In this document: positions 30,508 to 55,273 of the stretch, piece by piece
How the letters are laid out: each line of letters starts with the position of its first letter
Position numbering within the stretch: the stretch's first letter is position 1
Notes under the pieces: model-generated
The model's input: the letters and a program-made list of their open reading frames with translations, nothing else
Told to the model about the DNA's origin: nothing
Databases searched by the model: none
Position numbers and translations under genes: made by a program
NCBI GenBank assembly: GCA_019058295.1
Contig: JAHPZI010000001.1
Location: 1 to 64,000 of the forward strand
DNA length: 64,000 bases
Direction: 5' to 3'
From: Promethearchaeota archaeon
GTDB taxonomy: Archaea; Asgardarchaeota; Lokiarchaeia; Sigyniarchaeales; SOKP01

Positions 30508-31047
30508 TTGAAAGAAGAAATTTATATATTTGACATTGATGATTGTATTATGCCTGCCATTATATCAAACTCTGAGGATAATAATCATTCCAGAGAACAA
30601 ACAGTAAAAGAATCAATAAGTAATGGACACAAAATCAAGCTATATCCCGATTTTATTAATTACTATAAGCAGCACTGCGAGCGAGCAAAATTAGTATTTT
30701 TTATTACGGGGAGAAAAAAAAGTGAATTTGGCAGTCTTACTGAATTTCAATTAAAACCATTAGATAGAATAAAAAGATACCAGATAATTTATTATCCTGA
30801 AGGAAAAGGACATCAAACTGATGAATATTTTGAATGGAAAATAAAAAAGATTGAAGAAATTTTAGAAAACAATGCAAAATATCAATTAAATAAATCTAAT
30901 AATGACAAAAATGACTTATCCGTTAAGATTTTCGATGATATGAATGATTACTTTTCTAAAGTAGAAGATTTAGCAAAAAAGTTTGAAATTAAGATTAAAT
31001 TCCATTTGATTAAGGGAGAGAAAAGCTGGATTAAGTTGAATAATTAA
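30508..31047 (+). CDS. HAD-superfamily phosphatase-like protein
   Basis: FDIDD (motif I), ITGR (II), K (III), FDD (IV). Capless architecture. Confidence 0.75.
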   Translation: MKEEIYIFDIDDCIMPAIISNSEDNNHSREQTVKESISNGHKIKLYPDFINYYKQHCERAKLVFFITGRKKSEFGSLTEFQLKPLDRIKRYQIIYYPEGKGHQTDEYFEWKIKKIEEILENNAKYQLNKSNNDKNDLSVKIFDDMNDYFSKVEDLAKKFEIKIKFHLIKGEKSWIKLNN

Positions 31048-31073
31048 ATATAATAAAAGATAATCAAAATTTT

Positions 31074-32573
31074 TTAAGACACCTCTATTTGAAATCCATT
31101 TTCTTTATCTTGTGGGATTATTACATTTATATCTTTATTGGAGAGAAGTTTTTCAAAAAGTTCTGGGTATTTGGTGTGAATTGGTATTAAATTTTCAGGA
31201 TTTATTTCCATTATATATTTGTAGATATCATGAGGTATCGCATGACCTGAGGCGTTAATTCTATAGGAAGGAATGTGGAGGTTTAATAGTTTTTTTTCTA
31301 ATGTTTTTGAATCATCATAGAAATGATCTGTATAAGGATCTATGGTTGAAGAGAGAAAAAGCCCTTTTAGATGGTTAGGTAAAGATTCAAGAAGTTGCTC
31401 CTTATTTAAGGAGGTAATATTCAGGAAAAAATTTCCCTCAGAATTTGTAATATCTTCAAATTCAATATATCTCCACATTTTCTCATGCTTTTTGAGCATA
31501 TTTTCAATAAAAGGCTTCCATGGATATCGTCTATGAGATTGTTTTAGGATATAAATATGATCATCCTTCCTAATGTGAGGATTTTTCATAGTAGGATAGA
31601 TGGCTTTTTTATTCAAGCGATAATAGAAATAGGCGTCTTTTTCTGTAATAATATATTTCCAATTGTGTTGCTTAGCGATGGTTGCATAGGTCCGAAAGCG
31701 ATCCCAATCTCCTCTATCATATTTTACTAAGAAATAATTAAAGAAAATATTTTTAAATAAAGTTTTTAGATTTTTCTTGACCGTACGCTCTGATTCAATA
31801 GCTCCCTTATGGATATGGGTTCCTTCACAAATTAGACATTTAACTCGTGAATTATTATTTATTTCATTTTTTGGAGGATCTCCCCTCCTTAAAAGTTCTT
31901 TTACTTTCAATAATAAATCACCTGTCATATAAGAAAGGGGTCCATGCAACCGAAAATCTCCGGAATAGACTACAATTCCCGCTGATGTCTTAAAAATAAA
32001 GCCATATGAGCCAGGAACAGAATGATCCACGTGAATAGGTATAATCTCTAAGCCTTTAATATCAATGATATTGCCAGTTCTAAAAAGTTTCCATTTTAAA
32101 CCCGTATAAAAATTGTCCATTCGGAATCCCCTTGTGTCATAATGAGACAGTATTATTTTTTTAGTAGTTACACCGGTATAAATCGGGATATTACGATTTA
32201 GTAACGTTATACCATAGTAATGATCTCTATGAGCATGAGAGATTAACAATCCATGGATTTTAGTTGGAGGATCAGTTTTATTTTTACACTCACCTACTTT
32301 TTGCCCATGTCTCTGCTTTTTATGATTAAAGATATAATATTTTGAATAGAGATTTCTTAGTACTTCTCCTTTAGGGCGAGGAATCAATTTAGCTTTGAAA
32401 AGGCTTTCTATATTCGAAGGAGCATCATAATTAAAAGATGGGTTGTATCGTTCAAAATTTATTCCAAAATCAATTAGTAAATTTACATCAAATCCTAAAT
32501 CTTCTAAAAGAACACAATTTCCTCCGATCTCGTTGATTCCCCCCAATAAAGTTATTTTTAGTGTAGATTTCAT
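31074..32573 (-). CDS. RNase J-like metallo-beta-lactamase/beta-CASP nuclease
   Basis: GGINEIGGN, SHAHRDH, VDHS, GDFRLHG, ASGHA, PIHT. Confidence 0.85.
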   Translation of the reverse strand: MKSTLKITLLGGINEIGGNCVLLEDLGFDVNLLIDFGINFERYNPSFNYDAPSNIESLFKAKLIPRPKGEVLRNLYSKYYIFNHKKQRHGQKVGECKNKTDPPTKIHGLLISHAHRDHYYGITLLNRNIPIYTGVTTKKIILSHYDTRGFRMDNFYTGLKWKLFRTGNIIDIKGLEIIPIHVDHSVPGSYGFIFKTSAGIVVYSGDFRLHGPLSYMTGDLLLKVKELLRRGDPPKNEINNNSRVKCLICEGTHIHKGAIESERTVKKNLKTLFKNIFFNYFLVKYDRGDWDRFRTYATIAKQHNWKYIITEKDAYFYYRLNKKAIYPTMKNPHIRKDDHIYILKQSHRRYPWKPFIENMLKKHEKMWRYIEFEDITNSEGNFFLNITSLNKEQLLESLPNHLKGLFLSSTIDPYTDHFYDDSKTLEKKLLNLHIPSYRINASGHAIPHDIYKYIMEINPENLIPIHTKYPELFEKLLSNKDINVIIPQDKENGFQIEVS

Positions 32574-32738
32574 TTTAAAATCTCCCTATCTCAATAAAAT
32601 CTTAAAATAAATAATTAAAAATATTTTATATCAGACATATAGGTCAAAATTTTTTTTATAATATAATAGTCTGAATAGTTCTTAATAAAATTTTTATATC
32701 ACAATTAAGAGGAGTCCTGAAAGTTATCCTTCAATATA

Positions 32739-32781
32739 AATTTGGGAACTAAAAAAGCAGAAGAATGGAGGAATGCCTTGA
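32739..32781 (+). repeat. left copy of imperfect 43-bp direct repeat
   Basis: aatttgggaactaaaaaagcagaagaatggaggaatgccttga is 38/43 identical to 45337..45379. Confidence 0.85.
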
Positions 32782-32783
32782 TA

Positions 32784-35700
32784 TTAGTTAACAATAGGTT
32801 GAATTTTATCAAAAATTACGAGTGTTTTATTTAAGGATTTGAAGATCTCAGTAATGTTTTCCATAAATGCTTTATTATCTATGATTGGTCCATGACTTCC
32901 AGGATTTCGGATTGGTGATGATAAAAAAGTAAAATATTGAATTTCTTCTATATCGGGCTTAGAAATTATTGATAATAATAATTTTTTTAATCTAAGAATA
33001 AAAGGATCTTGTTTTGGGTTTAAAATATCCTTTAATAAATAATTTATACTCCCCAAAGTCATATAATCTCCCTTCCATATTTCTTTAATTCCCCTTGGTA
33101 ATCTAATCCACTCATTCTTAGGAATCCTCGAATTTGGTGGATAAATCTTATATAATTCATCAAGAAAGTAAAGTGAAATTTTGGAGTGAAAAAGAGAAGC
33201 AAATCCATTAGTCAATTCTAAGAATATGATCCCTGTATTATCATTTAAACTATTAAAATTTTTAAGGTTTTTAATTAAATCATTAGCTAATATGAAATGT
33301 TTCAATGCATCTTTATCATGAACAATATTTAGATTTATTATCCCACTTATTTGGATATCCATAAAATCTCGTTTAGCTTTCATATATAAAGCAATTTCCA
33401 TATCTATATCTTTAAAGTATTTATAAGCTTCGTCATATATTTCTTGAGCTCTAATAAAATTTAACTTCAGTTCATACATTCTTGCTAAATTAGTTCTAAA
33501 AATTGAATTATTAGGGCTAAGAGAAATTGCTTGTTCAAATATAGGAATTGCTTTTTCAATCTCTTGAATATCACCATATATAGTTCCTATATTATTTAAT
33601 ATAGACCCTTTAAACTCTATTTTTTTTGTAATCCTAAATGCTTTATAAAAATATTTTATAGCGTCTCTAAAATATCCTAGATCAGCAATGGCTAAACCTA
33701 TATCACAATAAATCTTGGATTTCTTCTCATTATGTAATTCATTTATTTTTAAATCTTTAAAAAGATCATTAATCCTACGATTAAATTCCTCACCTTCAAA
33801 CCATATTCTTAAATTTTGAAAACATGACTTGATTATTGAATTAATTTTAAGATAACCTCCATTAGATTCCTCTTCATAAATTCTAAGAAGATTTGAACAT
33901 GCATCAGAGATTTTTCCTAAAATTAAATTGATAAGGACTAAATAATTACAATAATACAAATCATTTGGTCTAAAAAATAATGCATTCTTAAGATATTTAG
34001 AAGCTGATTTATAATCTTGATTATAAAAATATGGAAATGCAATAATCTCCATTGTGAGTCCTAGAAATTTTCTATCAATTGTCCATTCTGTAGAAAACTC
34101 GATTGTTTTTGATATTTCAATAGCTTTTTCAAAACTTGCCATTAATTGGATAAATAATATTTGATTTCCTTTTCTTTTTAAAAAATAGAAAAATTCCTTT
34201 TCTAGATAATCATCAATGCTCTGAAAATTATTTAAGATAAATTTTCTAATATCAAAATAAAATAAATAACTTTCATACAATGAAGGAATTAAAGGTTCTC
34301 TTTCAAAAACTTCAAGTGTCTCAAACTCAAACAAAGTTTTCTTAATTCTTCTTTCTTCATCATAATCTTCAGAAAATAACGAGTTGAGAGGCATCAAATA
34401 ATGTAATACTTCAAAAGGATTAATTAATTTATTCTTGAATAATTCGTCTCTGTTAAAATTTAATTTATTGATAGTCTCTTTTTCTTGTTGAAAATTTTTA
34501 TTAAACCTATAAATAATGCTCTTAATTACTTCTAATTTAACTTTAAAATATATGTTCTCTTCAGTCTCAACTAGTAAATTGAAAATTTCTATCGTAAAAT
34601 CAACATTTTCATTATCTCGCATTTTAGAACTAATTTCTCCAAATAAAAATAATAATTCTATTAAAATTCGATTCTGATGATTAAGCATAGATTTTAATTC
34701 TTCTTTTTTTTCTTTTAATTTAATTTTTAGATTTTGTAGAAAAGGATATTTAAGAATTAATATTTCTAATGCATTTGCGTAATCCTCAATGTTTATATAA
34801 GTTTTGCATAAATATTTGATTAAAATGAGATTATTGATGTTCTCATCACTATAGTTTGGAACTTCAACAAATATTTCGTTGTTTGATTCTTTTATTAACT
34901 TTTCAATTAAACCTTTAATTTCAGACAATAAGTCATATTTATGCCAGATGGGAAGATCTGATATAAAATCCTTTTTCTCATATAAGTTAGGATTAGAATT
35001 TAAGAATTCACATAGAGGCTCAACACCATAAAATTTATTTAAATAATCGATTTTATCTTGAACATTTAGAAAATTAAAATAGATGTAAGCAGCAATATTC
35101 ATAATTTTGCTTCTGATAAAGCTAATATCTATAAATGTTAATTTTTCTTTAATTAAATCTTGAAAATGTTCTAAATACTCTGAAATCTTCGAATGCAAAT
35201 GAGGATATTTTAAGTTATCTACAGTAAACTGTAAATCGTCACATAATGTAATATTTTTCCTCTCAGCTTCAATATAATCTAAAAAATATGGTTTTATATT
35301 CTTTATTACTTCTCTTGTTGCATTTAACAGATAATATTGAGCCTTTCGATTTTCTTTATAGGGGGAGGACCCCCAGAAAAGGAAATATCCTTGATTATAC
35401 CCAGATATAAATTCAAGAAGCATTGATTCTACAGCAACAGCTTCTTGAATTTTACCTTGCTCCATGAATTTCCTCCATATACGATAAACCCAAATGTTTT
35501 TTTGCTCACTTTCTCTAAAAACTGTATTAAAAAAGTAGTTTAATCGTCTCTCATTGATCAAATTAAATTTAATTTCACTTAAGTATAGATCATAATCCTC
35601 TCTTTGTTTAGACTTGATCTCCGAAAATTTAGTGAAAATTACCTTATCTTCAAAAAATTTTAAAATTTCTCTAGTTATTTTTCTCAGATATTCTGATTTT

Positions 35701-36104
35701 TCATTTAGTTCCTTATAAATAGTTAATCTAAAACCAGGATCTAATCGAAATTTCTTTAGAAAAAGATTTTTTAATAAGAAATCTATTGCTATATGATTAT
35801 AATCTACATTTTTTTGGTTTTCTATTTCCTTAATATATTCAATCCTCTGTTTTAAAACAAACCTCTCTAATAAAAAGAATTTATCTTTTATACTAAAAGG
35901 GCTCGCTTTATTATCTTCCAAAAACGGATCAAGAAGTTTATGTGATAATTTTGAGATCGATGGAGACTTCTTCTTCTTTCTTGCCTTCTTATGTGTATTC
36001 TGCTCTTTATTGAATTTCTGGGATTCATGTGAACCCAAATTATGTTTTTGAAATTTATAACCTCTGCTTTTGGTAGGTATTTTAATTTTTTCTTTTTTTG
36101 CCAT
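32784..36104 (-). CDS. large helical/TPR protein with C-terminal HEPN-like (RxxxxH) domain
   Basis: TPRs (ILNNIGTIYGDIQEIEKAIPIFEQAISLSP) and C-terminal MTLG...IRNPGSHG. The N-terminus is very basic. Confidence 0.72.
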   Translation of the reverse strand: MAKKEKIKIPTKSRGYKFQKHNLGSHESQKFNKEQNTHKKARKKKKSPSISKLSHKLLDPFLEDNKASPFSIKDKFFLLERFVLKQRIEYIKEIENQKNVDYNHIAIDFLLKNLFLKKFRLDPGFRLTIYKELNEKSEYLRKITREILKFFEDKVIFTKFSEIKSKQREDYDLYLSEIKFNLINERRLNYFFNTVFRESEQKNIWVYRIWRKFMEQGKIQEAVAVESMLLEFISGYNQGYFLFWGSSPYKENRKAQYYLLNATREVIKNIKPYFLDYIEAERKNITLCDDLQFTVDNLKYPHLHSKISEYLEHFQDLIKEKLTFIDISFIRSKIMNIAAYIYFNFLNVQDKIDYLNKFYGVEPLCEFLNSNPNLYEKKDFISDLPIWHKYDLLSEIKGLIEKLIKESNNEIFVEVPNYSDENINNLILIKYLCKTYINIEDYANALEILILKYPFLQNLKIKLKEKKEELKSMLNHQNRILIELLFLFGEISSKMRDNENVDFTIEIFNLLVETEENIYFKVKLEVIKSIIYRFNKNFQQEKETINKLNFNRDELFKNKLINPFEVLHYLMPLNSLFSEDYDEERRIKKTLFEFETLEVFEREPLIPSLYESYLFYFDIRKFILNNFQSIDDYLEKEFFYFLKRKGNQILFIQLMASFEKAIEISKTIEFSTEWTIDRKFLGLTMEIIAFPYFYNQDYKSASKYLKNALFFRPNDLYYCNYLVLINLILGKISDACSNLLRIYEEESNGGYLKINSIIKSCFQNLRIWFEGEEFNRRINDLFKDLKINELHNEKKSKIYCDIGLAIADLGYFRDAIKYFYKAFRITKKIEFKGSILNNIGTIYGDIQEIEKAIPIFEQAISLSPNNSIFRTNLARMYELKLNFIRAQEIYDEAYKYFKDIDMEIALYMKAKRDFMDIQISGIINLNIVHDKDALKHFILANDLIKNLKNFNSLNDNTGIIFLELTNGFASLFHSKISLYFLDELYKIYPPNSRIPKNEWIRLPRGIKEIWKGDYMTLGSINYLLKDILNPKQDPFILRLKKLLLSIISKPDIEEIQYFTFLSSPIRNPGSHGPIIDNKAFMENITEIFKSLNKTLVIFDKIQPIVN

Positions 36105-36162
36105 TATATATTATTTCTTTTTTTCTTTGATAAATTCTTTTAATTCCATATTTATTTCACTT

Positions 36163-36684
36163 TTATTTATCTAGTTTTAACATCGTTTTTAGCAAATTCT
36201 CATTCGACTTAATATCGTCTAAGCCTTCCATAAATACTTCAGCAAATCTGAATTTATTCGAGATCCAAAACTTTGAGCATATATCTTGTTTAATATTATC
36301 TTCAATATATAAAATGTGTTCATTTATATCTATATTAAAAGGATTACCATAATCAAACGCCTTTTTTTCAATCCTCTCTCTTAGGGTTGATAATAATTTA
36401 GTTTTACAGAGAAAAATCAAAACAGAATCCCCTGTTAGTTCTAAAGCTCTTTTTATAGCAAATTTATGACATCCGGCACCTGTAAATTCCAATATAACGT
36501 TATTATTATCCTCAATATTTTTAAGAAATTCTTGAAGACAAAAATACTCTTCAGAAATCTTTTCTTTAAGATATTTTCTACGAATTTCATCAATTTGAAT
36601 GAATTTAAATCCAGTAAGCTCTTGAATTATCTTACCTAAAGTGGTTTTCCCACTCCCAATATTCCCGATAATTAAAATTCTCAT
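36163..36684 (-). CDS. P-loop NMP/shikimate-kinase-like protein
   Basis: MRILIIGNIGSGKTT, then IDEIR. 173 aa. Confidence 0.8.
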   Translation of the reverse strand: MRILIIGNIGSGKTTLGKIIQELTGFKFIQIDEIRRKYLKEKISEEYFCLQEFLKNIEDNNNVILEFTGAGCHKFAIKRALELTGDSVLIFLCKTKLLSTLRERIEKKAFDYGNPFNIDINEHILYIEDNIKQDICSKFWISNKFRFAEVFMEGLDDIKSNENLLKTMLKLDK

Positions 36685-38168
36685 TTATTAAACACCAAAA
36701 CCTTCTTTATATTTTGAATTGCCTTTTCTGAAACATTGCATTGATTTCTCAAAAATTCTTCAGTTCCTATATATTCATTATCTATTATTTCAAAGATAAA
36801 TTCAATATATTTTCTATTAGTATCACTATAAGATAATAGATAATCTTGTAGTATTAATTCACGGTCTACACCAAGAAGGTCCAATAATAATGCAATTATA
36901 ACGCCTGTACGATCTTTTCCACCCTCGCAATGAATAATTAATCTATTCTTAGAAGCATTACTAAAGTATTTTTCAAAAATTAATCCTAATTCATCTCTAA
37001 AATCTTTCAAAAAAGCATAGTAAAAATTTTCATAAGGTTTATCAGGAATATAAGTGTTAACTTCTATCTTAAATGGAATATTAATTACATAATTCTCTTT
37101 TAACTCATCATCATAAAAATTATTGTATTTAATATAATTCTCAAGTTCATCCTTGCAGCGAATATCCAATATGTGTTTAATTTTCTTTTCCTTTAGAAAT
37201 TCCAATATCATTCCACTATTATTTTTAGATAATGAGGCACTTCTAAATATTAAACCTTCTTTAATTTTTATTTCATCTGAAAAATTGTTCGGGATTAAAG
37301 CAATATCTCTTAAATTTTTAAAAAGGAGATATTTTTCATCAACTTTTTTAAAGAAATTTTGAATATCCGAGAAGATGGCTTTTCCTAAATTAAATTTATC
37401 CATTCCTTTCTTTAAAACACCTAAAAACAAATTTTTTAAATTGTCTCTCTGATCAATCATATCATATTTTCTTAATCCTGCGGAGGCTCTGTAATATTTA
37501 TTTCGCAAATCCCAGTTATCAATAATATCTGTAGTAAATCGACTTGGTTGGTACAAATTATAATGTTTATCCTCTACCATAGCTTTTAATTCTGCTAGTT
37601 TGTAAAAAGAAAGGGAATAATTCATGTAAGCTCGATATTCATCATCTTTAGCAAGATTAGCAAGACACCTTTCAAAATAGTAAATAAATTTATAGATTTT
37701 TTCCTTAAACAGGGCTTTTAATCTATTAATATCGCTAAGATCAATCCAGTTTTCTAGATATATCTGTTTTACTCTGTTATTTTTATCATATCCAATTGCT
37801 TCTATAGGATTTGTTATCATGGATTCTGCTATATAAATGATATCTTCTTTTGCTTCTTCGATCTTCTTAATTCCTATTTCTATTTTAATAAATGTTTTTT
37901 CTGTGAATATTATCCATTTATTATATATTTCAAACTGATTTGAAATTCCCTCATCATCATTATTTAATATTTCAATTACAATTTGCTTAATTTCTTTTTC
38001 TATATTCTCATTAGAGAACTCGTTCAGATAGATGAAGAGATCGAGGTCTGAATAGTAATCATGAGATTTTCGAGCAAAACCCCCATATAATACAATTCCT
38101 TCTATAAATTCCAAACTTTTTATTCCTTCTTCGATCTTATACGCAATTCTATCAATAATCGGGTTCAC
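36681..38168 (-). CDS. fusion of Pol-beta-family nucleotidyltransferase, helical domain and PTP-like (tyrosine/phosphoinositide) phosphatase
   Basis: N-terminal YGGFARKSHDYYSDLDL. C-terminal NLRD, FRSASL, DIR, HCEGGKDRTG (CX5R), DYLLS. GTG start. Confidence 0.85.
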   Translation of the reverse strand: MNPIIDRIAYKIEEGIKSLEFIEGIVLYGGFARKSHDYYSDLDLFIYLNEFSNENIEKEIKQIVIEILNNDDEGISNQFEIYNKWIIFTEKTFIKIEIGIKKIEEAKEDIIYIAESMITNPIEAIGYDKNNRVKQIYLENWIDLSDINRLKALFKEKIYKFIYYFERCLANLAKDDEYRAYMNYSLSFYKLAELKAMVEDKHYNLYQPSRFTTDIIDNWDLRNKYYRASAGLRKYDMIDQRDNLKNLFLGVLKKGMDKFNLGKAIFSDIQNFFKKVDEKYLLFKNLRDIALIPNNFSDEIKIKEGLIFRSASLSKNNSGMILEFLKEKKIKHILDIRCKDELENYIKYNNFYDDELKENYVINIPFKIEVNTYIPDKPYENFYYAFLKDFRDELGLIFEKYFSNASKNRLIIHCEGGKDRTGVIIALLLDLLGVDRELILQDYLLSYSDTNRKYIEFIFEIIDNEYIGTEEFLRNQCNVSEKAIQNIKKVLVFNK

Positions 38169-38169
38169 T

Positions 38170-39945
38170 TTACACGTTCCTCTCTAATTTTTCGTCTTTT
38201 ATTTTTTCAGCAATAATCAATGAGATTATTCCTTCATTTTTCTTTATGGTATTTATTTTAAATCCCGATTTTTGGAGTAGATCTTTGAATTCTCTATAAT
38301 TTCTTTCTTTACTTCCCACATTTACAAGTAAATTAAAATTCAATGAAACTCCAATATCAAAATTAGGATCTTCAGGAATAATCATTTCAAACAATAACAA
38401 TTTTCCATTTTGCTCTAAAGCACTATGGACTGTTTTCAAAATAGTGACTGCCTTTCCATCATCCCAATCATGGATTACTCTACTCATTATGATAATATCT
38501 GTTTTAAAGGGTATATTTCTAAAAAAATCTCCTGGGATATATTCAATTTTCTTTCTAATTGAATCTATATGAGCGAAATTCTTAACACTTTCAATTACCG
38601 ATGCTCTTTCAAACAAAATTCCTTTTTGAATATTTTGATTTTTAAGTAGTATCTTTTCTAATAGGTGCCCTATTCCTCCACCTATATCAGCAATTACTTT
38701 CGCATTGGTGAAATCATATAGATCGATAATTTTGTCATAATCTGAGGAGTACGCCTTCATCGATTTATTAAAAACTAACCCTTTATCTTCATATGTATCA
38801 AAATAATCAAATATTTCTTTTCCGAAAATTTCCTTAAATTGAGGTTTATTTGTCTTTAAAGCTTCTGTCAATTTACTCATTGCAAGATAATGTTCTTCTC
38901 CCCACATCTTAGCAGCATATTTAAGAGTTTCTGGATATTCTTCAGTAAGTAGATTTCCGAGATATTTTAATTTATATACACCATGAATCTCTTCGATAAA
39001 ATCCCAGATCTTTAACACTTGAATAATCAATTTTAATGATGAATAAGGGAGGTTTGTTGTTTCTAATAAATTTTTAAAATTATACTTATTATTTCTAATA
39101 TGATCTAAAATTTCCAATTCAACTATTGAATGAATAATTTGAGTTTTCCAATAGCCAACTAACATCTTCATTAATTTTTTTCTTAAGAACGATTGGATAT
39201 TATGTGAATTTTGATTATCAATCTTTTGAATGGTTTTTCCTTTTTCATCAATAATTAATTTTTCTCTATTGTGCTTACAAACAAGTGCAAATCCATTATA
39301 GAAAGGTTCAATCCATTTATATCGCTCTTGATAAAGTGCTTCTCCATTCTTATTTATATGAAAAGCCCCTCGATTATCTTTTGCAGTCGCAAAACCTTTA
39401 TGGAAAACTCCTAACTCAATAAATTTCTTTTCATGTAAAAAGTTGCCAAATTTATCAATATGTTGAGCAAATCCATCATATCCATAAACAACCGCAATAC
39501 CATATTTGTAATCCCCAACATATTTATATTTTTCATTATAAGCTAATGATCCATCTTTCTTAATATGAAAAAAATCACCACCTATATCTCTAACAGGACA
39601 CCTACCCTCTTGAAAATTACCTACCCATTCATATCTTTTTTCATACTTTGGTTTACCATTTAAACCAATGTGATACCATCCTGAATTATCAACAACAGCA
39701 GCGATTCCCTCATAGAATCCGAATGATTTGATGAATCTTTCTCCATATTGTGGATCCCCTTCAAAAGTGATGTGATATGCCCCAGTATTATCTATCACTG
39801 CGGCAACACCAGGAGGATGGAAACTCAAAACACAATCAAATGTTTTTTCATATAACGGCATTCCCTTATAGAGATGATGAGTCTCATCTTTTGAAATTTC
39901 TATTTTTTCTAAACTAATTTTTTCCTTCTCAGTTATACTACTCAT
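38170..39945 (-). CDS. WG-repeat protein fused to an O-methyltransferase (methyltransf_2-like) domain
   Basis: About seven ~36-aa repeats (FYEGIAAV...WYHI...G). The C-terminal part has a dimerisation HTH, DIGGGIG, GDFF and RVIHDW. Confidence 0.85.
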   Translation of the reverse strand: MSSITEKEKISLEKIEISKDETHHLYKGMPLYEKTFDCVLSFHPPGVAAVIDNTGAYHITFEGDPQYGERFIKSFGFYEGIAAVVDNSGWYHIGLNGKPKYEKRYEWVGNFQEGRCPVRDIGGDFFHIKKDGSLAYNEKYKYVGDYKYGIAVVYGYDGFAQHIDKFGNFLHEKKFIELGVFHKGFATAKDNRGAFHINKNGEALYQERYKWIEPFYNGFALVCKHNREKLIIDEKGKTIQKIDNQNSHNIQSFLRKKLMKMLVGYWKTQIIHSIVELEILDHIRNNKYNFKNLLETTNLPYSSLKLIIQVLKIWDFIEEIHGVYKLKYLGNLLTEEYPETLKYAAKMWGEEHYLAMSKLTEALKTNKPQFKEIFGKEIFDYFDTYEDKGLVFNKSMKAYSSDYDKIIDLYDFTNAKVIADIGGGIGHLLEKILLKNQNIQKGILFERASVIESVKNFAHIDSIRKKIEYIPGDFFRNIPFKTDIIIMSRVIHDWDDGKAVTILKTVHSALEQNGKLLLFEMIIPEDPNFDIGVSLNFNLLVNVGSKERNYREFKDLLQKSGFKINTIKKNEGIISLIIAEKIKDEKLERNV

Positions 39946-40987
39946 TTAAACACTCTCCAAGATTTTTTAATGGTCTTCTCATGTTGCATTGTTTACAAAC
40001 CTGATAAGTACCCCAATTGTTTATTAAATGTCTGTAGCTATCACTATTCCATAGTTCCATGAAATTCATTTCTTTTACATTACCAAAGTATCCCAGTGTC
40101 CTTCTTAAATAGTCTGGAGCACAACATACGTTAAAGGTTCCATCCCAGGCTATCCAAGCTTCCCTCCCTAAGAATGGACATATAAAATTTTCTGGAAATA
40201 TATTATTTTTAGAGTTATTTGAAATAGAATATATATTATCGAGTTTAATTTTTTTACCATTTTTTAAAATGGAAGTATCAGCGATTCTTTTCATTTTTTC
40301 AACGGTTTTATTCCATTTTTTTATAGATTCTTTGTCTTTCAATAATGATTGATTTTCTAATTCAGGATGAGTAATCCATAGATGATGCCCCTTAAAGCGA
40401 TCAATATTCAATTCTATTGCCAATTTAAGGAGTCCTAGTATCTCATCTAAATTCTTTTCCATAAATGTTGCCTGAAAAGTTATAGTTGGAAAATTTATCG
40501 CCTTCTGTCTAATATCGTCTCTAATATTAATAAATTTTTTAATATTAGAGATCTCTTTTTCAAAATTTATTCCTTCCATAATTTGTTCATTGATACATTT
40601 TGAGGCACCATTAATAGAAATTTTAATATCGCTAATAATTGGTAAAATTAATTTTCCCCATTTTTCAGCACCTAATCTTGGAAAAGTACCGTTTGTAGTT
40701 AAATTCATTTTAAGATTATAACTTTTTACTAGATTTATTAGATCTATAAATTTGTCATAAAGGAGTGGCTCGCCCATAGTACTGGGTATTATTTCCTTTA
40801 AGCCATAATTTACTAAATCTTGAACGACCTCTTTAATAGTTTTAAATTCCATTACTCTAAAATCCTTATGCTTATTAAAATTATATTTACTATGCTCCTC
40901 ACACATCATACAATGAAGATTACACTGATCAGGATTTGTATCGAATGTAATTCTCCAGGGTACCTTTAATTTTTCTTTAATGAACAA
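39938..40987 (-). CDS. radical SAM protein with SPASM/twitch domain
   Basis: CNLHCMMC, MGEP, TTNG, and C-terminal CPF...DG...VCC...GNV...LWNS...CKQC. Confidence 0.9.
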   Translation of the reverse strand: MFIKEKLKVPWRITFDTNPDQCNLHCMMCEEHSKYNFNKHKDFRVMEFKTIKEVVQDLVNYGLKEIIPSTMGEPLLYDKFIDLINLVKSYNLKMNLTTNGTFPRLGAEKWGKLILPIISDIKISINGASKCINEQIMEGINFEKEISNIKKFINIRDDIRQKAINFPTITFQATFMEKNLDEILGLLKLAIELNIDRFKGHHLWITHPELENQSLLKDKESIKKWNKTVEKMKRIADTSILKNGKKIKLDNIYSISNNSKNNIFPENFICPFLGREAWIAWDGTFNVCCAPDYLRRTLGYFGNVKEMNFMELWNSDSYRHLINNWGTYQVCKQCNMRRPLKNLGECLNE

Positions 40988-42254
40988 CGAATCGAACCTC
41001 CTCTCTTTTTAGAAGTTTATAATATAATTCCTCGATTTCTTTGACATCTTCTTGAATTGAGCGCACATAAGTTTTTTGTGAATATATATCAATGAGTTCT
41101 GCATTTTCAATGAAAATATTCATCTTTTCTATTAAATCTTCTACATTCCCGGGCTCAAATAATAACCCATTCTTTTTATGTGAAACTAGTTCTGCCATCC
41201 CTCCTAAGTTGCTCGTAATTACTGGAATCTTAGCTAAAAAGGCTTCATGAATTACTAAAGGTGAATTTTCATACCAAATTGACGGAACTACTAAAATATC
41301 AATATTAGATAGAATTTTTGAAATTTCTTTATAATGATAACCACCCATAAAATGAATCGCGTTATTTTTACACCGATTTTTAAGATAAATTGATGAGCTT
41401 GGCATTTTCCCATAAATATTAAGCTCTGATTTAGAATGATCAACATTATTGAAGGCTTCAATTAATTGAGCAAGTCCTTTAACAGGAATAATTCTCCCTA
41501 AAAATCCGAACCGAATTTTTCCATTGGGTTGTTTTTTTACTCCATTAATTATTTGTTTATCAAAACCGTAATCCATATAGATAATTTTATCTTCTGGAAT
41601 TCCGTAATTAATATATGTATTGCGAAGGAATCTGGAAGGAGCGATAAATAAATCGATCTGGTTATTTATTTTAGAAAATGAAGTTAACCATCTCTTAATC
41701 TCAAGTTTTGCTTGTAACTCTGATGTGAAGTATTTCATATTACAATTTATACATTTTTCGAAGCTTGGTCCTGAACAGAGTGAATAATCATCTTGAATTA
41801 ACTGGCCTCTAATGCAGAGCATCCAAAAATCATGAAGCGTGAAAATAATGGGAATCCCATTTTTTTTTATGATTTTTATGATTTGAATAGTAAGATGGCT
41901 TAAATGGTCTATATGAACAATATCGGGGCTAATTTCCTTCAATTTTTCTCTAAATACATCTGCCATTTTAAAATCGATATATTTACTACGAAAAGTATAA
42001 ACTCTTCCAGGTTTATTAACCCGAATTATCGTTAAACCATCTTCAATCGTCTCAGTTATTTCATAAGGTTTTTGATATTCATCTTCTATACGAGTAAAAA
42101 TAATAACATTATGCTTTTTTGCAAGCTCACGGCATTTGTTCCAAGCATAAACTTCAGAACCTGCCATATAATAAGGGGGGAATCCGTGAATGATAATTAA
42201 GATTTTTAATCTTTTTTTCTTATTATTTATCTTTTGGTAGTTTTTATAATTCAA
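40977..42254 (-). CDS. GT4-family glycosyltransferase
   Basis: HGFPP...GSE, TLHDFW..C, GRIIPVKG, PSIWYENSPLVIHEA. Confidence 0.92.
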   Translation of the reverse strand: MNYKNYQKINNKKKRLKILIIIHGFPPYYMAGSEVYAWNKCRELAKKHNVIIFTRIEDEYQKPYEITETIEDGLTIIRVNKPGRVYTFRSKYIDFKMADVFREKLKEISPDIVHIDHLSHLTIQIIKIIKKNGIPIIFTLHDFWMLCIRGQLIQDDYSLCSGPSFEKCINCNMKYFTSELQAKLEIKRWLTSFSKINNQIDLFIAPSRFLRNTYINYGIPEDKIIYMDYGFDKQIINGVKKQPNGKIRFGFLGRIIPVKGLAQLIEAFNNVDHSKSELNIYGKMPSSSIYLKNRCKNNAIHFMGGYHYKEISKILSNIDILVVPSIWYENSPLVIHEAFLAKIPVITSNLGGMAELVSHKKNGLLFEPGNVEDLIEKMNIFIENAELIDIYSQKTYVRSIQEDVKEIEELYYKLLKREEVRFVVH

Positions 42255-42272
42255 TTCTTATCATCTCCTTGA

Positions 42273-42331
42273 AAACTTACTCAACATTTAATCGGTTGAG
42301 GGTAAGGAGGTGCCCTCCTTGGAGTAAGTTT
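42273..42331 (-). promoter_or_regulatory. nested inverted-repeat element in the operon leader (candidate structured cis-regulatory RNA or operator)
   Basis: Perfect 10-bp IR aaacttactc (42273-82) / gagtaagttt (42322-31). It encloses aaggagg/cctcctt (42304-10 / 42314-20) and ctcaac/gttgag (42280-85 / 42295-300). Confidence 0.55.
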
Positions 42332-42454
42332 ATCTTGTTATTTTACACTTATTACTAGAATTAAGCAACAATTTATATTTATATTTAACTTTTTTTTTCA
42401 TATTTGAATAAAAAAGTTTATTAAGAAAATTTACCATTTTTTATTTGGTAAATT

Positions 42455-43105
42455 ATGAAAACATGTCAAATTGCTACAGTTGGGGAAAATATCGAATGGA
42501 TTTTGAAAGGTTTATTGATATTTAATGCAAATAAGCTTATACTTATTTCCACATCAAATCCAGAATTTTTAAAAAAAATAATTGATATAAAGAATAGATT
42601 AATAGATCCTGAGTTTGAATTTAAACCTTTAGAGATTGAAGAGATTATAATTGAAAGCGAGAACCCATTTGAATTTATAAAAATACTAAAAAAAATAATC
42701 TTGGAAAATGGTAGAAAAGGATTCCAAATTGAAGTGAATTCTACAGCGGGTCTTACTATTTGGCAAACTTTAAGCTATTTTATTGCTATTCAATTAAGAG
42801 AATTTGTAAGAAACTATTTTATTATTAATAAACAAAAGGGTGATGCATTTTCACTACCCTTATTAATTCTAAATAAAACTGAACAGACTTTTTTAGACTT
42901 ATTAGGAGAAAAGACTCTAAATATAGAAGATTTAAAAACAGAATATGAGAATTTTAAAAAAAAGGAAGTATCAGTTGGATTAATTTCAAAATATTTAACA
43001 AAATTAAAAGAAAAGAAATTAATTCAAGAATCTAAAGTTGAGAGATTTAAATTTTTTAGATTAACAGAACTAGGAAGGATTTATAATCTTAATGTAATAA
43101 TATAA
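42455..43105 (+). CDS. CARF-like + winged-HTH transcriptional regulator (Csa3/DUF6293-like)
   Basis: N-terminal IATVG...KLILI and VNSTAG (compare VNLSGG). C-terminal LISKYLTKLKEKKLI...LTELG. Confidence 0.78.
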   Translation: MKTCQIATVGENIEWILKGLLIFNANKLILISTSNPEFLKKIIDIKNRLIDPEFEFKPLEIEEIIIESENPFEFIKILKKIILENGRKGFQIEVNSTAGLTIWQTLSYFIAIQLREFVRNYFIINKQKGDAFSLPLLILNKTEQTFLDLLGEKTLNIEDLKTEYENFKKKEVSVGLISKYLTKLKEKKLIQESKVERFKFFRLTELGRIYNLNVII

Positions 43106-43134
43106 ATGAATATGATTAATATTTTATAAAAAAA

Positions 43135-45045
43135 CTAAGGTTCTAAAGTACAAAGATTTAATAACAGATTGGTATCTTCATTAATTAATTTATTCTCAAT
43201 ACTCTTTATTGTTTCTTCACTTAGATCTATTTTATTTCCTCTTATTATATCTTGTATTTTATTCTTACCTCCATGAGAACAGCTATTTCTAATTGCAACA
43301 AAATTATATGATTTTGCCCCACATTTAAATCTACACTCTAAGAAATTTAAAATTTCTTTAATATGTTTTAGATTTTTTTTTCCAATTAAGACTCTGAATA
43401 ATTTAAATGGTTTGAGATATGTTTCAGGAATATGATGAAACGAATTAATGTTATATATTGACGAAAGGATATAATAAATTTTACCTAATGTAGGTAATAC
43501 TCTAAATTTAATATATCTTTTTAGGTGTTTGAGTGTTTTATTAAATTCCCTGTCAATTTTCCATAAACCATAAGTATTTATATCATCATTAAGCTCATTT
43601 AATATTTTTTCATGGTAGTTAACAAAAAATTTAATACGTAATTCGCATTCAATGGCATCAGAAATTTTATTAATACAGGATCGATAATCATTAGGCATTT
43701 TATCTAATGTTTCTTTAAACATAATTAAATGATCTTGCGTTTCTTCATCAAAATTAGTAAAGCATTCGTCATTTAGAGTTTTTAACCATACTCCTCTATA
43801 ATATTCTCTCTCTTTTTTTATTTCTTCTCCTGTTTTTTTTTCTTGTTTTGTAGATTCTAAAGTAGCATTAGCAATATTTTCACTTATATCTGAATTATGT
43901 AGTTTTTTACAAATTTCTACAACATTTTCAGAAGTTTTTTCAACTTCCTTAAGTTTAATTTCAAAAGGTCTATTTTCTAAAATATCATTGATTCTTCTTA
44001 TTGTCTCTGGTAAATCGATGAACTTTTTTTTATAATATTCTTTCATTTTGGGATTTTTAATTGAATTCAGAATTAATTCATAAGCGGTTAAAGAATTTGA
44101 ATAATTACGAAAGGCTTCTGAATATGATTCAGCATCATGGTATAGTTCGCCTAGAGCTTTATAAGTTTCAGCCATTCCATGATAATATTTGATTTTGATG
44201 GCGATTTTTAATGATTCGTCAAAATTTTTATAAGATTTATTAAGTTGATTAATTTTTTGATATATTTGACCAATTAATCTTAAAATTTCAGATTTCATTT
44301 TTAAATTCTCAATTTTATCTTTTATTTTTAGAAGCTCTTCAAGATGTTTATAAGATTCTTCATATTTCTCTTGAAGATATAATGCTCTGATTTTATTTCT
44401 CAAGGCATAAGCCTTATTACTTAAATCTCTATTTTTTATAGATAAATTATAAGCCTTTTCACTATATTCAATTGCTTTCTTAAATATATTTTTCTTTGTT
44501 AAAACTGAAGAAATCATATTATAAATTCCTGAAAATATATAATTTGGTGCTCCAACTTCTTCATATAATTTGAGAGCAGTTTCCAAATAACTTAATGACC
44601 TATCATAATCTCCTAAAACTTCATAATAAACTCCAGTAGAATTCTTAATTTTAGCAATTAAATATTGATCTTTTAATTTTTCAGCTATATCCAATGCACT
44701 CATTAAACATTCATAATACTCATCAAACTCTAATAAATATTGGTGTACATTTGCTAAATGATTTAAATATCGAGGCATCTTATTATATAGCTTTAATTTC
44801 TTAATCATTTTTAGAGCATTAATATATTTTTCCTTTGCTTCTTCATATTTACCCATTCTATGAAGTATTCTTCCTATATTTTTAGTTGATTCAGCTATCA
44901 ATTCAGGATCATTGATTTTAATTGCCAACTGTTCGCATTTTAAAAAGATTTTATATGCATCAGAAATTTCTCCATCAAAATACTTTTTTTCTGCTGTTTT
45001 TGTACACTTATCAAATTCTTTATTTATATCCATTTCAATCAACAA
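43135..45045 (-). CDS. TPR protein with C-terminal HEPN-like (RxxxxH) domain
   Basis: About eight TPRs, then AIECELR, PTLG and IRNSCSHG. Confidence 0.75.
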   Translation of the reverse strand: MLIEMDINKEFDKCTKTAEKKYFDGEISDAYKIFLKCEQLAIKINDPELIAESTKNIGRILHRMGKYEEAKEKYINALKMIKKLKLYNKMPRYLNHLANVHQYLLEFDEYYECLMSALDIAEKLKDQYLIAKIKNSTGVYYEVLGDYDRSLSYLETALKLYEEVGAPNYIFSGIYNMISSVLTKKNIFKKAIEYSEKAYNLSIKNRDLSNKAYALRNKIRALYLQEKYEESYKHLEELLKIKDKIENLKMKSEILRLIGQIYQKINQLNKSYKNFDESLKIAIKIKYYHGMAETYKALGELYHDAESYSEAFRNYSNSLTAYELILNSIKNPKMKEYYKKKFIDLPETIRRINDILENRPFEIKLKEVEKTSENVVEICKKLHNSDISENIANATLESTKQEKKTGEEIKKEREYYRGVWLKTLNDECFTNFDEETQDHLIMFKETLDKMPNDYRSCINKISDAIECELRIKFFVNYHEKILNELNDDINTYGLWKIDREFNKTLKHLKRYIKFRVLPTLGKIYYILSSIYNINSFHHIPETYLKPFKLFRVLIGKKNLKHIKEILNFLECRFKCGAKSYNFVAIRNSCSHGGKNKIQDIIRGNKIDLSEETIKSIENKLINEDTNLLLNLCTLEP

Positions 45046-45336
45046 AAAAGGGATAAATTATTGAATTTTTTTCATTGATAAATTAAAATATACATATTTG
45101 TAATTTAATATTTCGTAGATATATTTAGTTCTACAAAACAAGTGTTCTTTAAGAGCTGAATTTATTTATATATCCATAATTTATCAAAGGTAAATTTTTT
45201 TTAGAATAATTAGATTACGGATTATTACTAATAAATTCTATGATAAGTTTATCTTTTCTATTTAATTTGATGGAATCTTATTTATGAAATAAAGAAATAG
45301 TGCGCAAGATTTTATAAATTAAGAGAAAAAAACATT

Positions 45337-45379
45337 AATTTCGGGACCAAAAAAGCAGAAGAATGGAAGAATGGCTTGA
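45337..45379 (+). repeat. right copy of imperfect 43-bp direct repeat, overlapping the start of the methyltransferase gene
   Basis: aatttcgggaccaaaaaagcagaagaatggaagaatggcttga shares a 19-bp perfect core with 32739..32781. Confidence 0.85.
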
Positions 45380-45905
45380 AACAGAGGGCAAGTTAGTACT
45401 TAGAGAAATTGGAATTAAAGAAGGGATGACAGTATTAGATTTTGGAAGTGGTTCGGGGGTTTATACGATGATAAGTTCAAAAATAGTAGGGATAAAGGGA
45501 GAGGTCTATGCGCTTGATAGTGATAAGGCGTCCTTGAACAAACTAAGCAACGAGCTCGAAGCCTCAAAAATTAAAAATGTAAAGATTATCAAGGGTCCCA
45601 AGCAGATTGCCCTTCCATTTGAGAAGGAATATTTTGACTTTTTTTTATTATATGATGTATTTCATTTATTAGACAAGGATAATCGGGATACTGTGTTAAG
45701 AGAGGCATATCGAGTGTTGAAAAGAGAGGGGATATTATCGTATCACGCAACGCATATAGGCAGCTATGATACGAATTTAGAAGACGTGCAACAGCAAATT
45801 AAACTGCACGGATTTCGATTAAAGGAAGAGTTTCGGAGACCTATGTTTCATTGGAGATGGATTGCGGAGGGCTTAGTCTTTAATTATGGAAAACAAATAG
45901 GTTAA
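45363..45905 (+). CDS. class I SAM-dependent methyltransferase
   Basis: VLDFGSGSG, LPF...FD, EAYRVLKREG. Confidence 0.88.
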   Translation: MEEWLETEGKLVLREIGIKEGMTVLDFGSGSGVYTMISSKIVGIKGEVYALDSDKASLNKLSNELEASKIKNVKIIKGPKQIALPFEKEYFDFFLLYDVFHLLDKDNRDTVLREAYRVLKREGILSYHATHIGSYDTNLEDVQQQIKLHGFRLKEEFRRPMFHWRWIAEGLVFNYGKQIG

Positions 45906-46404: not shown

Positions 46405-46596
46405 TTAAGCTCTAACCATTTTAGAGCCACATTTTGGGCATGTTTGATTATAACAAGGAACTCCTCTCTGATGGGACACTCTATATCCACAATTAGGGCA
46501 TACACAATCTCCTCCAAGTCCTGCGGCGTATGGTCCGCCCATCCTTCCTTTACCACCACTTCTGCCACTCCCTCTGCCATCACCTCTTCCGCTCAT
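46405..46596 (-). CDS. small Gly-rich protein with double CxxC (zinc-ribbon-like)
   Basis: GRG repeats, CVCPNCG...RGVPC...CPKCG, and upstream GGAGGT RBS. Confidence 0.8.
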   Translation of the reverse strand: MSGRGDGRGSGRSGGKGRMGGPYAAGLGGDCVCPNCGYRVSHQRGVPCYNQTCPKCGSKMVRA

Positions 46597-46678
46597 AGAT
46601 CAACCTCCATTCGATTATTTAAAATTTAATTTTATCTTGAGATTTGAGTAATTTCAAAAATAAAAGTGCTCAAGAATT

Positions 46679-47981: not shown

Positions 47982-48536
47982 TTATACTTCCATTGATTGA
48001 TTTGCTGTGGTTATTTTTCTATAATCTATGATGGTGCTTACTAATGATTCAAATACTTCATTGACGTTATATCCTGTTTTCGAGGAGACTTTTAAATATC
48101 CGCTTATATTATTGTTTTCGACAAACTGACGAACGTATTCATCATCAACCATGATAGACTCTATTAAATCATATTTAGATCCCAGAAGAAGAATAGGGAG
48201 TGTGGGATCATCTTTACGGATAAGATTTATCCATTTAGGTAAATTCATAAAACTTTTGAAGATTGTTAAATCAAACATTAAAAATGCACCTGCGGCACCT
48301 TTTACAAAATCATCGAGCATGAATCTGAACCTTTCTTGTCCGCCAAAGTCCCATAATTGTAATGAGCAGACGGGACCCTCTTTTAAAGTAAGGACTTTAT
48401 GAAGAATATCAGTACCGATGGTCATCTTCGCTTCATATAAGAATTCCCCTTCAATATAGCGGTGTAGAATAGTAGTTTTCCCTACACCACCATCACCAGC
48501 AATAATAATTTTAAAGACTAGACTGGGATTAATCAT
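47982..48536 (-). CDS. Rab-like small GTPase (copy 1)
   Basis: GDGGVGKT, MTIG, WDFGGQERF, SKYD, SSK. Confidence 0.93.
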   Translation of the reverse strand: MINPSLVFKIIIAGDGGVGKTTILHRYIEGEFLYEAKMTIGTDILHKVLTLKEGPVCSLQLWDFGGQERFRFMLDDFVKGAAGAFLMFDLTIFKSFMNLPKWINLIRKDDPTLPILLLGSKYDLIESIMVDDEYVRQFVENNNISGYLKVSSKTGYNVNEVFESLVSTIIDYRKITTANQSMEV

Positions 48537-55131: not shown

Positions 55132-55273
55132 TAAACTTGTGCAGTTCAATCTGATTATTAAAATTTACTTTTATAAAAAATTAGTTTTGTTTTTTATTTA
55201 TGTCTCGGGAGTTTTGCTGCGTTTCTCATATTTCTAAGGGTTCAGATTGATTTTCTAATATATATTATCTTAT

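What the first reader, a model, noticed from the sequence alone, without database searches (positions are those of the whole stretch)
32739..45379. Candidate undescribed system: CARF-regulated small-molecule/nucleotide-modifying operon flanked by two TPR-HEPN proteins
Seen: five tightly coupled genes (overlaps of 11, 8 and 4 bp and one 1-bp gap). They encode a GT4 glycosyltransferase, a radical SAM/SPASM protein, a WG-repeat/O-methyltransferase, a nucleotidyltransferase-CX5R phosphatase and a P-loop kinase. A TPR-RxxxxH gene follows 58 bp later. A CARF-wHTH regulator is divergent, a second TPR-RxxxxH gene lies beyond it, and the whole block sits between direct repeats next to a defence island. 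Known: CARF domains sense nucleotide second messengers and HEPN RxxxxH domains are RNases. GT4, radical SAM, methyltransferase and kinase/NTase sets occur in aminoglycoside and nucleoside pathways. Inference: a mobile defence or conflict module that makes or modifies a sugar/nucleotide compound or signal, with TPR-HEPN effectors. I do not recognise it as a named system.
Basis: partly seen in the sequence, partly recalled or inferred. Interest (0 to 1): 0.88.

Follow-up and report, generated by a model that had tools for sequence, protein, structure and literature searches.

The report
Asgard defence module with Undecim-like enzymes
In Asgard archaea, a sugar-modifying enzyme set previously known only as an unexplained piece of Wolbachia's phage island is repeatedly packaged with a CARF-type switch, a structured RNA leader and HEPN-type RNase genes, which suggests that it makes a small anti-viral compound or signal; this has not been tested.

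Summary
The genes, overlaps, RxxxxH motifs and the 49-bp repeat are real. The host is a Lokiarchaeia-like archaeon. Three enzymes (GT4, twitch radical SAM, WG-propeller/O-methyltransferase) are orthologues of Wolbachia Undecim UC3-UC4 (38/47/31% identity), a widespread cassette of unknown product; this scan has found that core before on other DNA. GT4 accompanies the radical SAM gene in 80/80 informative loci and WG in 73/75. Kinase, NTase-phosphatase, CARF and HEPN are not universal. In one Lokiarchaeia sub-lineage they do form a recurring module. Ten loci carry CARF, core and a HEPN-type gene; six have all five enzymes, most at 57-67% identity. Starting from the TPR-HEPN side, all five informative close homologues sit beside the core. 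The downstream effector slot is swapped between loci. The 636-aa protein's C-terminus folds like RnlA/LsoA HEPN. Flanking genes are defence or mobile genes; no glycan-export family recurs. Further features: a covarying leader whose loop pairs with the Shine-Dalgarno, and short repeat peptides heading most CARF-less relatives. This copy's CARF lacks the conserved Arg. The repeat is a scar of the neighbouring gene's start, with no integrase. Best reading: an inducible conflict module making a modified glycoside, with HEPN back-up (0.45). Product and activity are unshown.

The parts
32733..32781 (+). Left copy of a 49-bp direct repeat: decayed duplicate of the 5' UTR and first codons of the methyltransferase gene at 45363
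   Evidence: only about 16 bp of it survive in the sister locus L019
32784..36104 (-). 1106-aa TPR protein with C-terminal HEPN-like RNPGSH; fills the variable downstream effector slot
   Evidence: TPR Pfam; motif kept in homologues in L049 and L164; weak profile match to the other HEPN domain, E 6.6e-4, probability 27%
36163..36684 (-). Small P-loop kinase (AAA_18/shikimate-kinase-like)
   Evidence: 9 of the 10 loci with this kinase type also have the CX5R phosphatase
36681..38168 (-). Pol-beta nucleotidyltransferase fused to a PtpB-like CX5R phosphatase; accessory, mostly replaced by a histidine phosphatase elsewhere
38170..39945 (-). WG-repeat beta-propeller (about residues 5-240) fused to a natural-product-type O-methyltransferase; orthologue of Undecim UC4 (WD0614)
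   Evidence: model pLDDT 96 and propeller hits; nearest solved relatives include CalO6, DnrK, MmcR; 31-35% to Wolbachia, Arsenophonus and Rickettsia copies
39938..40987 (-). Radical SAM enzyme with a short (twitch-type) auxiliary cluster domain; orthologue of the C-terminal half of UC3 (WD0613)
   Evidence: 47-49% to the UC3 copies; C-terminal domain matches BtrN weakly, E 2e-4
40977..42254 (-). GT4 glycosyltransferase with four invariant Cys; orthologue of the N-terminal half of UC3
   Evidence: 35-38% to the UC3 copies
42259..42331 (-). Conserved structured leader: three-helix junction whose loop (CUCCUU) can pair with the Shine-Dalgarno AAGGAG
   Evidence: 9 sequences, 96.8% of cells paired, 7 pairs with two-sided changes against 0-2 in slid controls; no Rfam family; single copy in the genome
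42455..43105 (+). Divergent CARF-wHTH regulator (CARF3/Csa3-like); motif 2 reads NSTAGLT, against NATAGLR in its close homologues
   Evidence: Arg requirement from PMC8844856
43135..45045 (-). 636-aa TPR-HEPN protein (RNSCSH); predicted RnlA/LsoA-like RNase domain
   Evidence: R, N and H conserved in at least 90% of 28 homologues; best structural matches RnlA Z 10.4 and LsoA Z 9.3
45331..45379 (+). Right repeat copy = native 5' end of the 180-aa methyltransferase gene (45363-45905)

Best explanation
An inducible anti-viral or conflict module of Lokiarchaeia built around an Undecim-like small-molecule pathway. Shown: gene content, conservation, domain identities, HEPN fold, leader covariation. 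Inferred from family knowledge: GT4 transfers an NDP-sugar to a cytoplasmic, probably phosphorylated, small acceptor; the twitch radical SAM enzyme oxidises, epimerises or decarboxylates the sugar; the O-methyltransferase methylates the product; the phosphatase unmasks it; kinase and NTase activate it or protect the producer. The WG propeller probably binds the acceptor or scaffolds the enzymes. Inferred regulation: the divergent CARF-wHTH controls transcription on a nucleotide or RNA-fragment cue, and the leader gates translation by hiding the ribosome-binding site. The TPR-HEPN proteins act as co-regulated or product-sensing RNases that give dormancy or abortive infection as a second line. 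The downstream effector is an exchangeable slot.
For: Core linkage 80/80 (GT4) and 73/75 (WG). A phosphatase is present in 34/55 long loci and is of two unrelated types that nearly exclude each other (CX5R 12, histidine 24, both 2). Other swapped partners are small-molecule tailoring enzymes: carbamoyltransferase, PhyH, a second rSAM. The methyltransferase is closest to natural-product O-methyltransferases. No flippase, polymerase or other glycan-export family recurs among 74 Asgard and 101 other flanking genes; TPR, SAVED, DNA methylase, DprA/SLOG, Schlafen, integrase, BREX, Dpd and viperin profiles appear instead. CARF + core + HEPN-type gene in 10 loci; all five enzymes + CARF + HEPN in 6 (window, L019, L050, L164, L166, L169), with rSAM identities 57-67% apart from window/L019 at 93%. 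Reciprocal test: 5 of 5 informative close TPR-HEPN homologues lie beside the core. In L164 the TPR-HEPN is co-oriented directly upstream of GT4; in L050 an AbiV HEPN is fused to the kinase. At the same chromosomal site in L019 the rSAM, WG-MTase and NTase-phosphatase are 89-94% identical, while the regulator (57%), the TPR-HEPN (42%) and the downstream gene (unrelated) are exchanged.
Against: No product, acceptor or anti-viral activity is shown for any member. Most core loci lack CARF and HEPN. Distant CARF homologues sit beside RxxxxH genes without the core, so CARF+HEPN is also a general island unit. The module loci belong to one clade and share descent. This copy's CARF lacks the Arg that is essential for cA4 binding in Csa3, and L166's HEPN motif is altered. 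No Cas10 or SMODS cyclase was found in the genome (79% complete). No exporter lies in the block. The defence enrichment of flanks was not compared with a random-gene background.
Confidence: 0.45

Rival explanations
1. Peptide or protein modification system (RiPP-like or target-tagging): the enzymes glycosylate, oxidise and methylate a short repeat peptide recognised by the WG propeller; the window copy uses a substrate encoded elsewhere.
For: A 36-100 aa polar peptide with repeated RSNQLNPNN-type or RIQS..RAQ-type motifs heads the operon in about 20 loci, archaeal and bacterial. It is present in nearly all CARF-less loci of the window's clade that have upstream DNA, and next to the CARF in L027 and L164. 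SPASM-type enzymes often act on peptides (own knowledge).
Against: No such peptide was found in this genome (79% complete) or in the close CARF loci. In the order, 22/154 genomes have the NPNN peptide, but only 5 of 25 matches lie beside the core. Three unrelated peptide families fill the position, which suits a regulatory or sensor role better. The methyltransferase is of the small-molecule class.
Confidence: 0.2
2. Accretion: an Undecim-like cassette with its own non-defence role landed next to a generic CARF-HEPN unit in a defence hot spot and was inherited with it; the parts do not cooperate.
For: CARF-wHTH plus RxxxxH genes occur without the core (G058, G283, G033, L170). The core occurs mostly without them. 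All close module loci are one lineage.
Against: The linkage survives 35-43% protein divergence, a rearranged gene order with a different CARF (L164), replacement of the HEPN by unrelated HEPN families, a kinase-AbiV fusion, and a second Asgard family (L027).
Confidence: 0.15
3. Envelope tailoring: the core modifies an S-layer glycan, glycolipid or LPS sugar (the reading in print for UC1-UC3), perhaps masking a virus receptor.
For: SDR epimerase upstream in 40/67 loci and UDP-glucose dehydrogenase in some; GT8 nearby in L017; PMC9203015 and PMC4701759 propose EPS/LPS roles from annotation alone.
Against: No recurrent glycan-assembly or export neighbours. The same core works across diderm bacteria, intracellular symbionts and archaea with unrelated envelopes. 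This locus has no SDR and no membrane protein.
Confidence: 0.12
4. Toxin-antitoxin guard: the NTase AMPylates and silences the HEPN RNases (HEPN-MNT logic) and the phosphatase or kinase reverses the block on infection.
For: A Pol-beta NTase sits near two HEPN genes; weak MntA and PDC-S09 profile hits.
Against: The MntA score is 19.8 bits against a cut-off of 60. NTase-phosphatase occurs with the core in loci without HEPN (L028, L031, L032, L069, L107, L113), and HEPN occurs with the core without the NTase (L044, L049).
Confidence: 0.08

Closest known systems
Undecim Cluster of Wolbachia prophage WO (WD0611-WD0621; UC3 = WD0613, UC4 = WD0614) and its copies on Rickettsia and Arsenophonus plasmids (PMC9203015, PMC4701759)
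   Same: Same order GT4 - radical SAM/SPASM - WG-repeat/O-methyltransferase; identities 38, 47 and 31% to the phage WO copy; function unknown in both.
   Different: Only 2 of the 11 genes are here. GT4 and rSAM are separate genes. No SDR, PhyH, ABC transporter, aldolases or UGDH in the block. NTase-phosphatase, kinase, CARF, leader and HEPN genes are not part of Undecim.
Csa3/CasR-type CARF-wHTH regulators (PMC8844856) and CARF-headed defence super-operons with HEPN effectors (CoCoNuTs, PMC11090510)
   Same: CARF-wHTH architecture; a CARF regulator at the head of defence genes with HEPN RNases.
   Different: No cas genes or McrBC-type core in the module; cA4 motif 1 Phe absent and motif 2 Arg lost in this copy; the regulated genes are biosynthetic.
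RnlA/LsoA and AbiV HEPN RNases
   Same: Fold of the 636-aa protein's C-terminal domain (Z 10.4, rmsd 3.5, 138 aligned) and RxxxxH motif; AbiV fused to the kinase in L050.
   Different: N-terminal TPR array; about 10% identity; no RnlB-like antitoxin identified.
Prokaryotic viperin + kinase (chemical anti-phage defence)
   Same: Radical SAM enzyme with a P-loop kinase in defence islands; works-like analogy (an enzyme-made antiviral molecule).
   Different: Only a partial, generic match to pVip profiles (E 2e-10, residues 20-165); carries an auxiliary-cluster domain; needs GT4, WG and MTase partners.
Aminoglycoside/aminocyclitol tailoring sets (GT4, BtrN-type twitch rSAM, carbamoyltransferase, PhyH, kinase, NTase); from own knowledge
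   Same: Enzyme classes, and a weak BtrN match of the auxiliary domain.
   Different: No cyclitol synthase, aminotransferase or exporter in the block.

Membership tests
Undecim Cluster | Orthologues of UC3 and UC4 in the same order | tested here: met
Undecim Cluster | Eleven-gene set WD0611-WD0621 | tested here: not met
   Only UC3/UC4 match the block; the other UC proteins hit scattered loci on other contigs or nothing
Undecim Cluster | Association with prophage WO or symbiont plasmids | tested here: not met
   Chromosomal defence island of a Lokiarchaeia-like archaeon
HEPN RNase (636-aa protein) | Conserved RxxxxH motif | tested here: met
   R, N, H in at least 90% of 28 homologues
HEPN RNase (636-aa protein) | HEPN helical fold | tested here: met
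   Model pLDDT 92; top three VIA hits RnlA/LsoA, Z 9.3-10.4, several other HEPNs in the top 15. Z is moderate for a helical bundle; Foldseek had no hit at E <= 0.001
HEPN RNase (1106-aa protein) | HEPN fold and motif | tested here: inconclusive
   Motif kept in two homologues; hhalign probability 27%; atlas hits below 0.9; not folded
HEPN RNase | RNase activity | not testable with these tools
   needs assay
Csa3 (cA4-binding CARF-wHTH) | CARF + wHTH architecture | tested here: met
   PADLOC CARF3 and CasR profiles over the full length
Csa3 (cA4-binding CARF-wHTH) | cA4 motif 1 (G-F-N/D) and motif 2 Arg | tested here: not met
   Window reads VGEN and NSTAGLT; the Arg is kept in the close homologues
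Csa3 (cA4-binding CARF-wHTH) | Type III CRISPR source of cOA in the genome | tested here: inconclusive
   No Cas10 palm or SMODS match in a 79%-complete genome
Prokaryotic viperin | Full-length pVip profile match, no auxiliary-cluster domain | tested here: not met
   38.7 bits over residues 20-165 only, against E 2e-75 for a viperin-like gene among the flanks of another locus; SPASM domain present
HEPN-MNT (type VII TA) | Stand-alone MntA antitoxin paired with the HEPN | tested here: not met
   19.8 bits against cut-off 60; fused to a phosphatase; distribution uncoupled from HEPN
Aminoglycoside biosynthetic cluster | Cyclitol synthase, aminotransferase and exporter in the cluster | tested here: not met
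   none among the block's ORFs
Integrative element bounded by att sites | Recombinase gene, conserved att pair, empty site in relatives | tested here: inconclusive
   No recombinase among the eight ORFs; left repeat cut to about 16 bp in L019; no clean empty site in 9 genus relatives
Riboswitch-like leader | Conserved covarying structure that can hide the ribosome-binding site | tested here: met
   9 related sequences only, structure derived from them; the anti-SD helix shows only one-sided (G-U) changes
Riboswitch-like leader | Ligand-dependent switching | not testable with these tools
   needs probing

The most novel reading that the evidence does not exclude
A previously undescribed immune system in the archaeal lineage closest to eukaryotes, in which a glycosyltransferase/radical-SAM pathway makes a new sugar-derived antiviral or second messenger that is sensed by a CARF transcription factor, an archaeal riboswitch-like leader and TPR-gated HEPN RNases. 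The Undecim core of Wolbachia phage WO would then be a repurposed chemical-defence pathway.
Probability: 0.2. Interest if true: 0.88.

Novelty: new variant of a known kind. Interest (0 to 1): 0.62.

Why it matters
The Undecim core is highly expressed in Wolbachia and moves between symbionts, yet its product is unknown (PMC9203015, PMC4701759). Finding it across many prokaryotes in defence and mobile contexts, and in Lokiarchaeia as a compact module with its own regulator, leader and swappable HEPN effectors, gives a specific hypothesis (chemical defence or signalling) and a minimal gene set to test. If the leader responds to a ligand it would be a rare archaeal riboswitch, and its ligand could reveal the pathway's product. 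The CARF-wHTH family here may sense something other than cyclic oligoadenylate.

Tried and rejected
Complex prediction of GT4 + rSAM with the WG propeller: no answer, score 0.00; not used as evidence. Foldseek on the HEPN model: nothing at E <= 0.001. ESM atlas for the 1106-aa C-terminus and for the peptide: leads at or below 0.9 only. Rfam: no family for the leader. A pattern search for the leader in 154 genomes used a wrong gap length, missed even the window's own copy, and is void. The genome-contig scan with a single protein gave one locus. The first peptide HMM search of the genome failed on an option clash and was rerun. Literature searches for WG repeat + radical SAM + glycosyltransferase, for the peptide motif and for an Asgard defence description found nothing in the held library; one wanted paper was not held. 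Sequencing runs: no RNA holder listed. PDB search with the CARF alignment found no CARF structure. Rejected: viperin identity, MNT antitoxin identity, full Undecim membership, att-bounded mobile element as a shown fact. The rSAM tree has weak deep support; no transfer direction is claimed.


Full report
Observation. The genome is 3.2 Mb, about 30% GC and 79% complete; named homologues are from Lokiarchaeia/Promethearchaeota. The window begins at the contig end, and 0.6-30 kb is a defence island (type IIG RM-like genes, SNF2 helicases, McrBC, GmrSD, a TmtA-like giant). Each block gene is single-copy in the genome.

The core is known by sequence. The radical SAM protein has 2183 homologues at E <= 1e-30. 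It matches the GT1/rSAM fusion of Wolbachia phage WO at 47%, and the WG-methyltransferase matches Arsenophonus and Rickettsia plasmid genes. The annotated regions show these to be WD0613 and WD0614, UC3 and UC4 of the Undecim Cluster. The papers read give only annotation-based guesses (EPS/LPS, methylation, antibiotics) and report high expression (PMC9203015; PMC4701759; bioRxiv 10.1101/2025.04.16.649125 calls the functions unknown). Earlier notes of this scan reached the same link on other genomes; I had made it.

What is conserved. In 99 loci from genomes, metagenomes and viral contigs (exact duplicates removed, relatives not), GT4 lies beside the rSAM in 80/80 loci with enough upstream DNA and the WG domain follows in 73/75. 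An SDR precedes in 40/67. Among 55 loci with long downstream DNA the methyltransferase occurs in 41, a histidine phosphatase in 24, the CX5R phosphatase in 12 (both in 2), a kinase in 18, a carbamoyltransferase in 9 and PhyH in 5. The core is patchy: 19 of 400 genomes of the phylum and none of 9 genus relatives searched. The invariant unit is therefore three domains plus exchangeable tailoring enzymes. The WG part models as a beta-propeller with regularly spaced invariant His. GT4 has four invariant Cys. The rSAM has a short auxiliary domain that weakly matches BtrN. The methyltransferase is nearest to natural-product O-methyltransferases. No NCBIfam family reaches its cut-off for any core protein.

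Context test. Among the nearest flanking genes of 30 Asgard-like and 41 other loci, no glycan-assembly or export family is hit by two or more proteins. Recurrent or strong hits are TPR, SAVED, cytosine methylase, DprA/SLOG, MoxR-vWA, RNase III, Schlafen, helicases, integrase, BREX, Dpd, type IV restriction and a viperin. This tally shows only the top 25 families and has no random background, so it indicates but does not measure enrichment.

The CARF/HEPN module. From the rSAM side, five other loci have a divergent CARF-wHTH (L019, L044, L049, L050, L027), and each has a HEPN-type gene in or beside the block. In L050 it is an AbiV domain fused to the kinase (Pfam E 6e-13). From the HEPN side, a profile of the 636-aa protein's C-terminal domain found 35 relatives. 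Of the close ones, all five with flanking DNA sit beside the core (L053, L164, L166, L168, L169), four of them with a CARF; two distant ones do not. Six loci hold all five enzymes, CARF and HEPN, at rSAM identities of 57-67% apart from the window/L019 pair. L164 has the same parts in another order, including a split homologue of the 1106-aa protein and the TPR-HEPN directly upstream of GT4. L019 occupies the same chromosomal site with the rSAM, WG-MTase and NTase-phosphatase at 89-94% identity, GT4 at 75%, but a 57% CARF, a 42% TPR-HEPN, a 53% kinase and an unrelated 1603-aa gene in the downstream slot. The domain itself folds confidently, and its best structural matches are RnlA and LsoA. The 1106-aa protein's HEPN assignment rests on the motif and a weak profile match. 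Limits: more distant CARFs lie beside RxxxxH genes without the core, the module loci are kin, and this copy's CARF has Thr where homologues have the Arg that Csa3 needs for cA4. No Cas10 or SMODS cyclase was found.

Two features outside the finding. (a) The 73 nt before GT4 form a conserved structure in ten loci: an outer stem, two inner helices, and a loop complementary to the Shine-Dalgarno. In nine aligned copies 96.8% of cells pair and 7 pairs change on both sides, against 0-2 in slid controls. The sample is small and related and the structure was drawn from it, so this is suggestive of a translational switch, not proof. (b) Most relatives without the close CARF carry instead a short polar repeat peptide at the head of the operon. 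The NPNN type is in 22/154 genomes of the order, but only 5 of 25 matches are next to the core, and none was found in this genome. It is thus a common island peptide and not an obligatory substrate, though it keeps a peptide-modification reading alive.

The repeat. The right copy is the 5' end of the neighbouring methyltransferase gene; the left is a decayed duplicate, mostly lost in L019. A genus relative without the core has a similar remnant elsewhere. No recombinase lies inside. It is best read as an insertion or rearrangement scar.

Mechanism. The most likely reading (0.45) is an inducible conflict module whose enzymes make a modified, methylated glycoside that acts as an inhibitor or signal, under CARF and leader control, with HEPN RNases as a second line. 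Every biochemical step is inferred from family knowledge. Rivals: peptide modification (0.2), unlinked accretion (0.15), envelope tailoring (0.12), HEPN-MNT guard (0.08).

Verdict. A real, recurring module; a new variant of the Undecim-like cassette, not described as a defence system in the papers searched. It is not a member of Undecim proper, of viperins, of Csa3 in the strict sense or of HEPN-MNT systems. Interest 0.62.

Noticed in passing
L012, L013, L014, L015, L021, L037, L038, L041, L046, L047, L051, L053, L065, L067 (40-300 nt upstream of GT4); L072, L074, L082, L083 (upstream of the SDR): Uncalled 40-100 aa peptides with two RSNQLNPNN-like motifs head the operon; the family has no NCBIfam model and also occurs before other island genes in Lokiarchaeia (22/154 genomes).
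   Followed up: partly
L027:7792-8004, L029, L032, L064, L066, L091, L164:8987-9115; L121:8358-8671: A second peptide family (RIQSH..RAQ) and, in L121, a third (GWP.TTG type) take the same position.
   Followed up: partly
window 42259-42331 (-): Conserved leader with a possible loop/Shine-Dalgarno pseudoknot; weak look-alikes upstream of a histidine phosphatase in L046 (3679-3744) and inside the operon in L029 (7578-7632).
   Followed up: yes
L050:6376-7932: The operon's kinase is fused to an AbiV-family HEPN domain.
   Followed up: yes
L154-L157, L160-L162, L170: A more distant CARF-wHTH family (about 30% identity) recurs in Lokiarchaeia next to varied RxxxxH proteins without the core: a possible general defence-island regulator.
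   Followed up: partly
window 30508-32573: The metallo-beta-lactamase (RNase J-like) gene and a 179-aa HAD-like gene form a pair that also neighbours the core in L044 and L063, and occurs without it in G009.
   Followed up: partly
window 19506-30208: A 2497-aa protein with no Pfam hit (PADLOC TmtA, E 2e-22, N-terminal part) is coupled to a SNF2 helicase.
   Followed up: no
window 14538-15635: A 365-aa protein with a PCNA-like domain pair behind a 110-aa extension lies directly after McrBC.
   Followed up: no
window 47982-48536, 48704-49258, 54577-55149; 48639, 49361, 52743: Three 86%-identical small GTPase genes, and a 37-50 bp intergenic repeat in three copies that also occurs in genus relative L124.
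   Followed up: no
window 46405-46599 (-): Short Gly/Cys-rich ORF (about 64 aa, two CxxC motifs) between the TsaA-like gene and the membrane protein gene.
   Followed up: no
L158:2536-3177: A close CARF orthologue with an internal stop and no core nearby (G038, 68% complete): probably a decayed module.
   Followed up: partly
L019:9119-13930: A 1603-aa protein with no Pfam hit fills the downstream effector slot.
   Followed up: no
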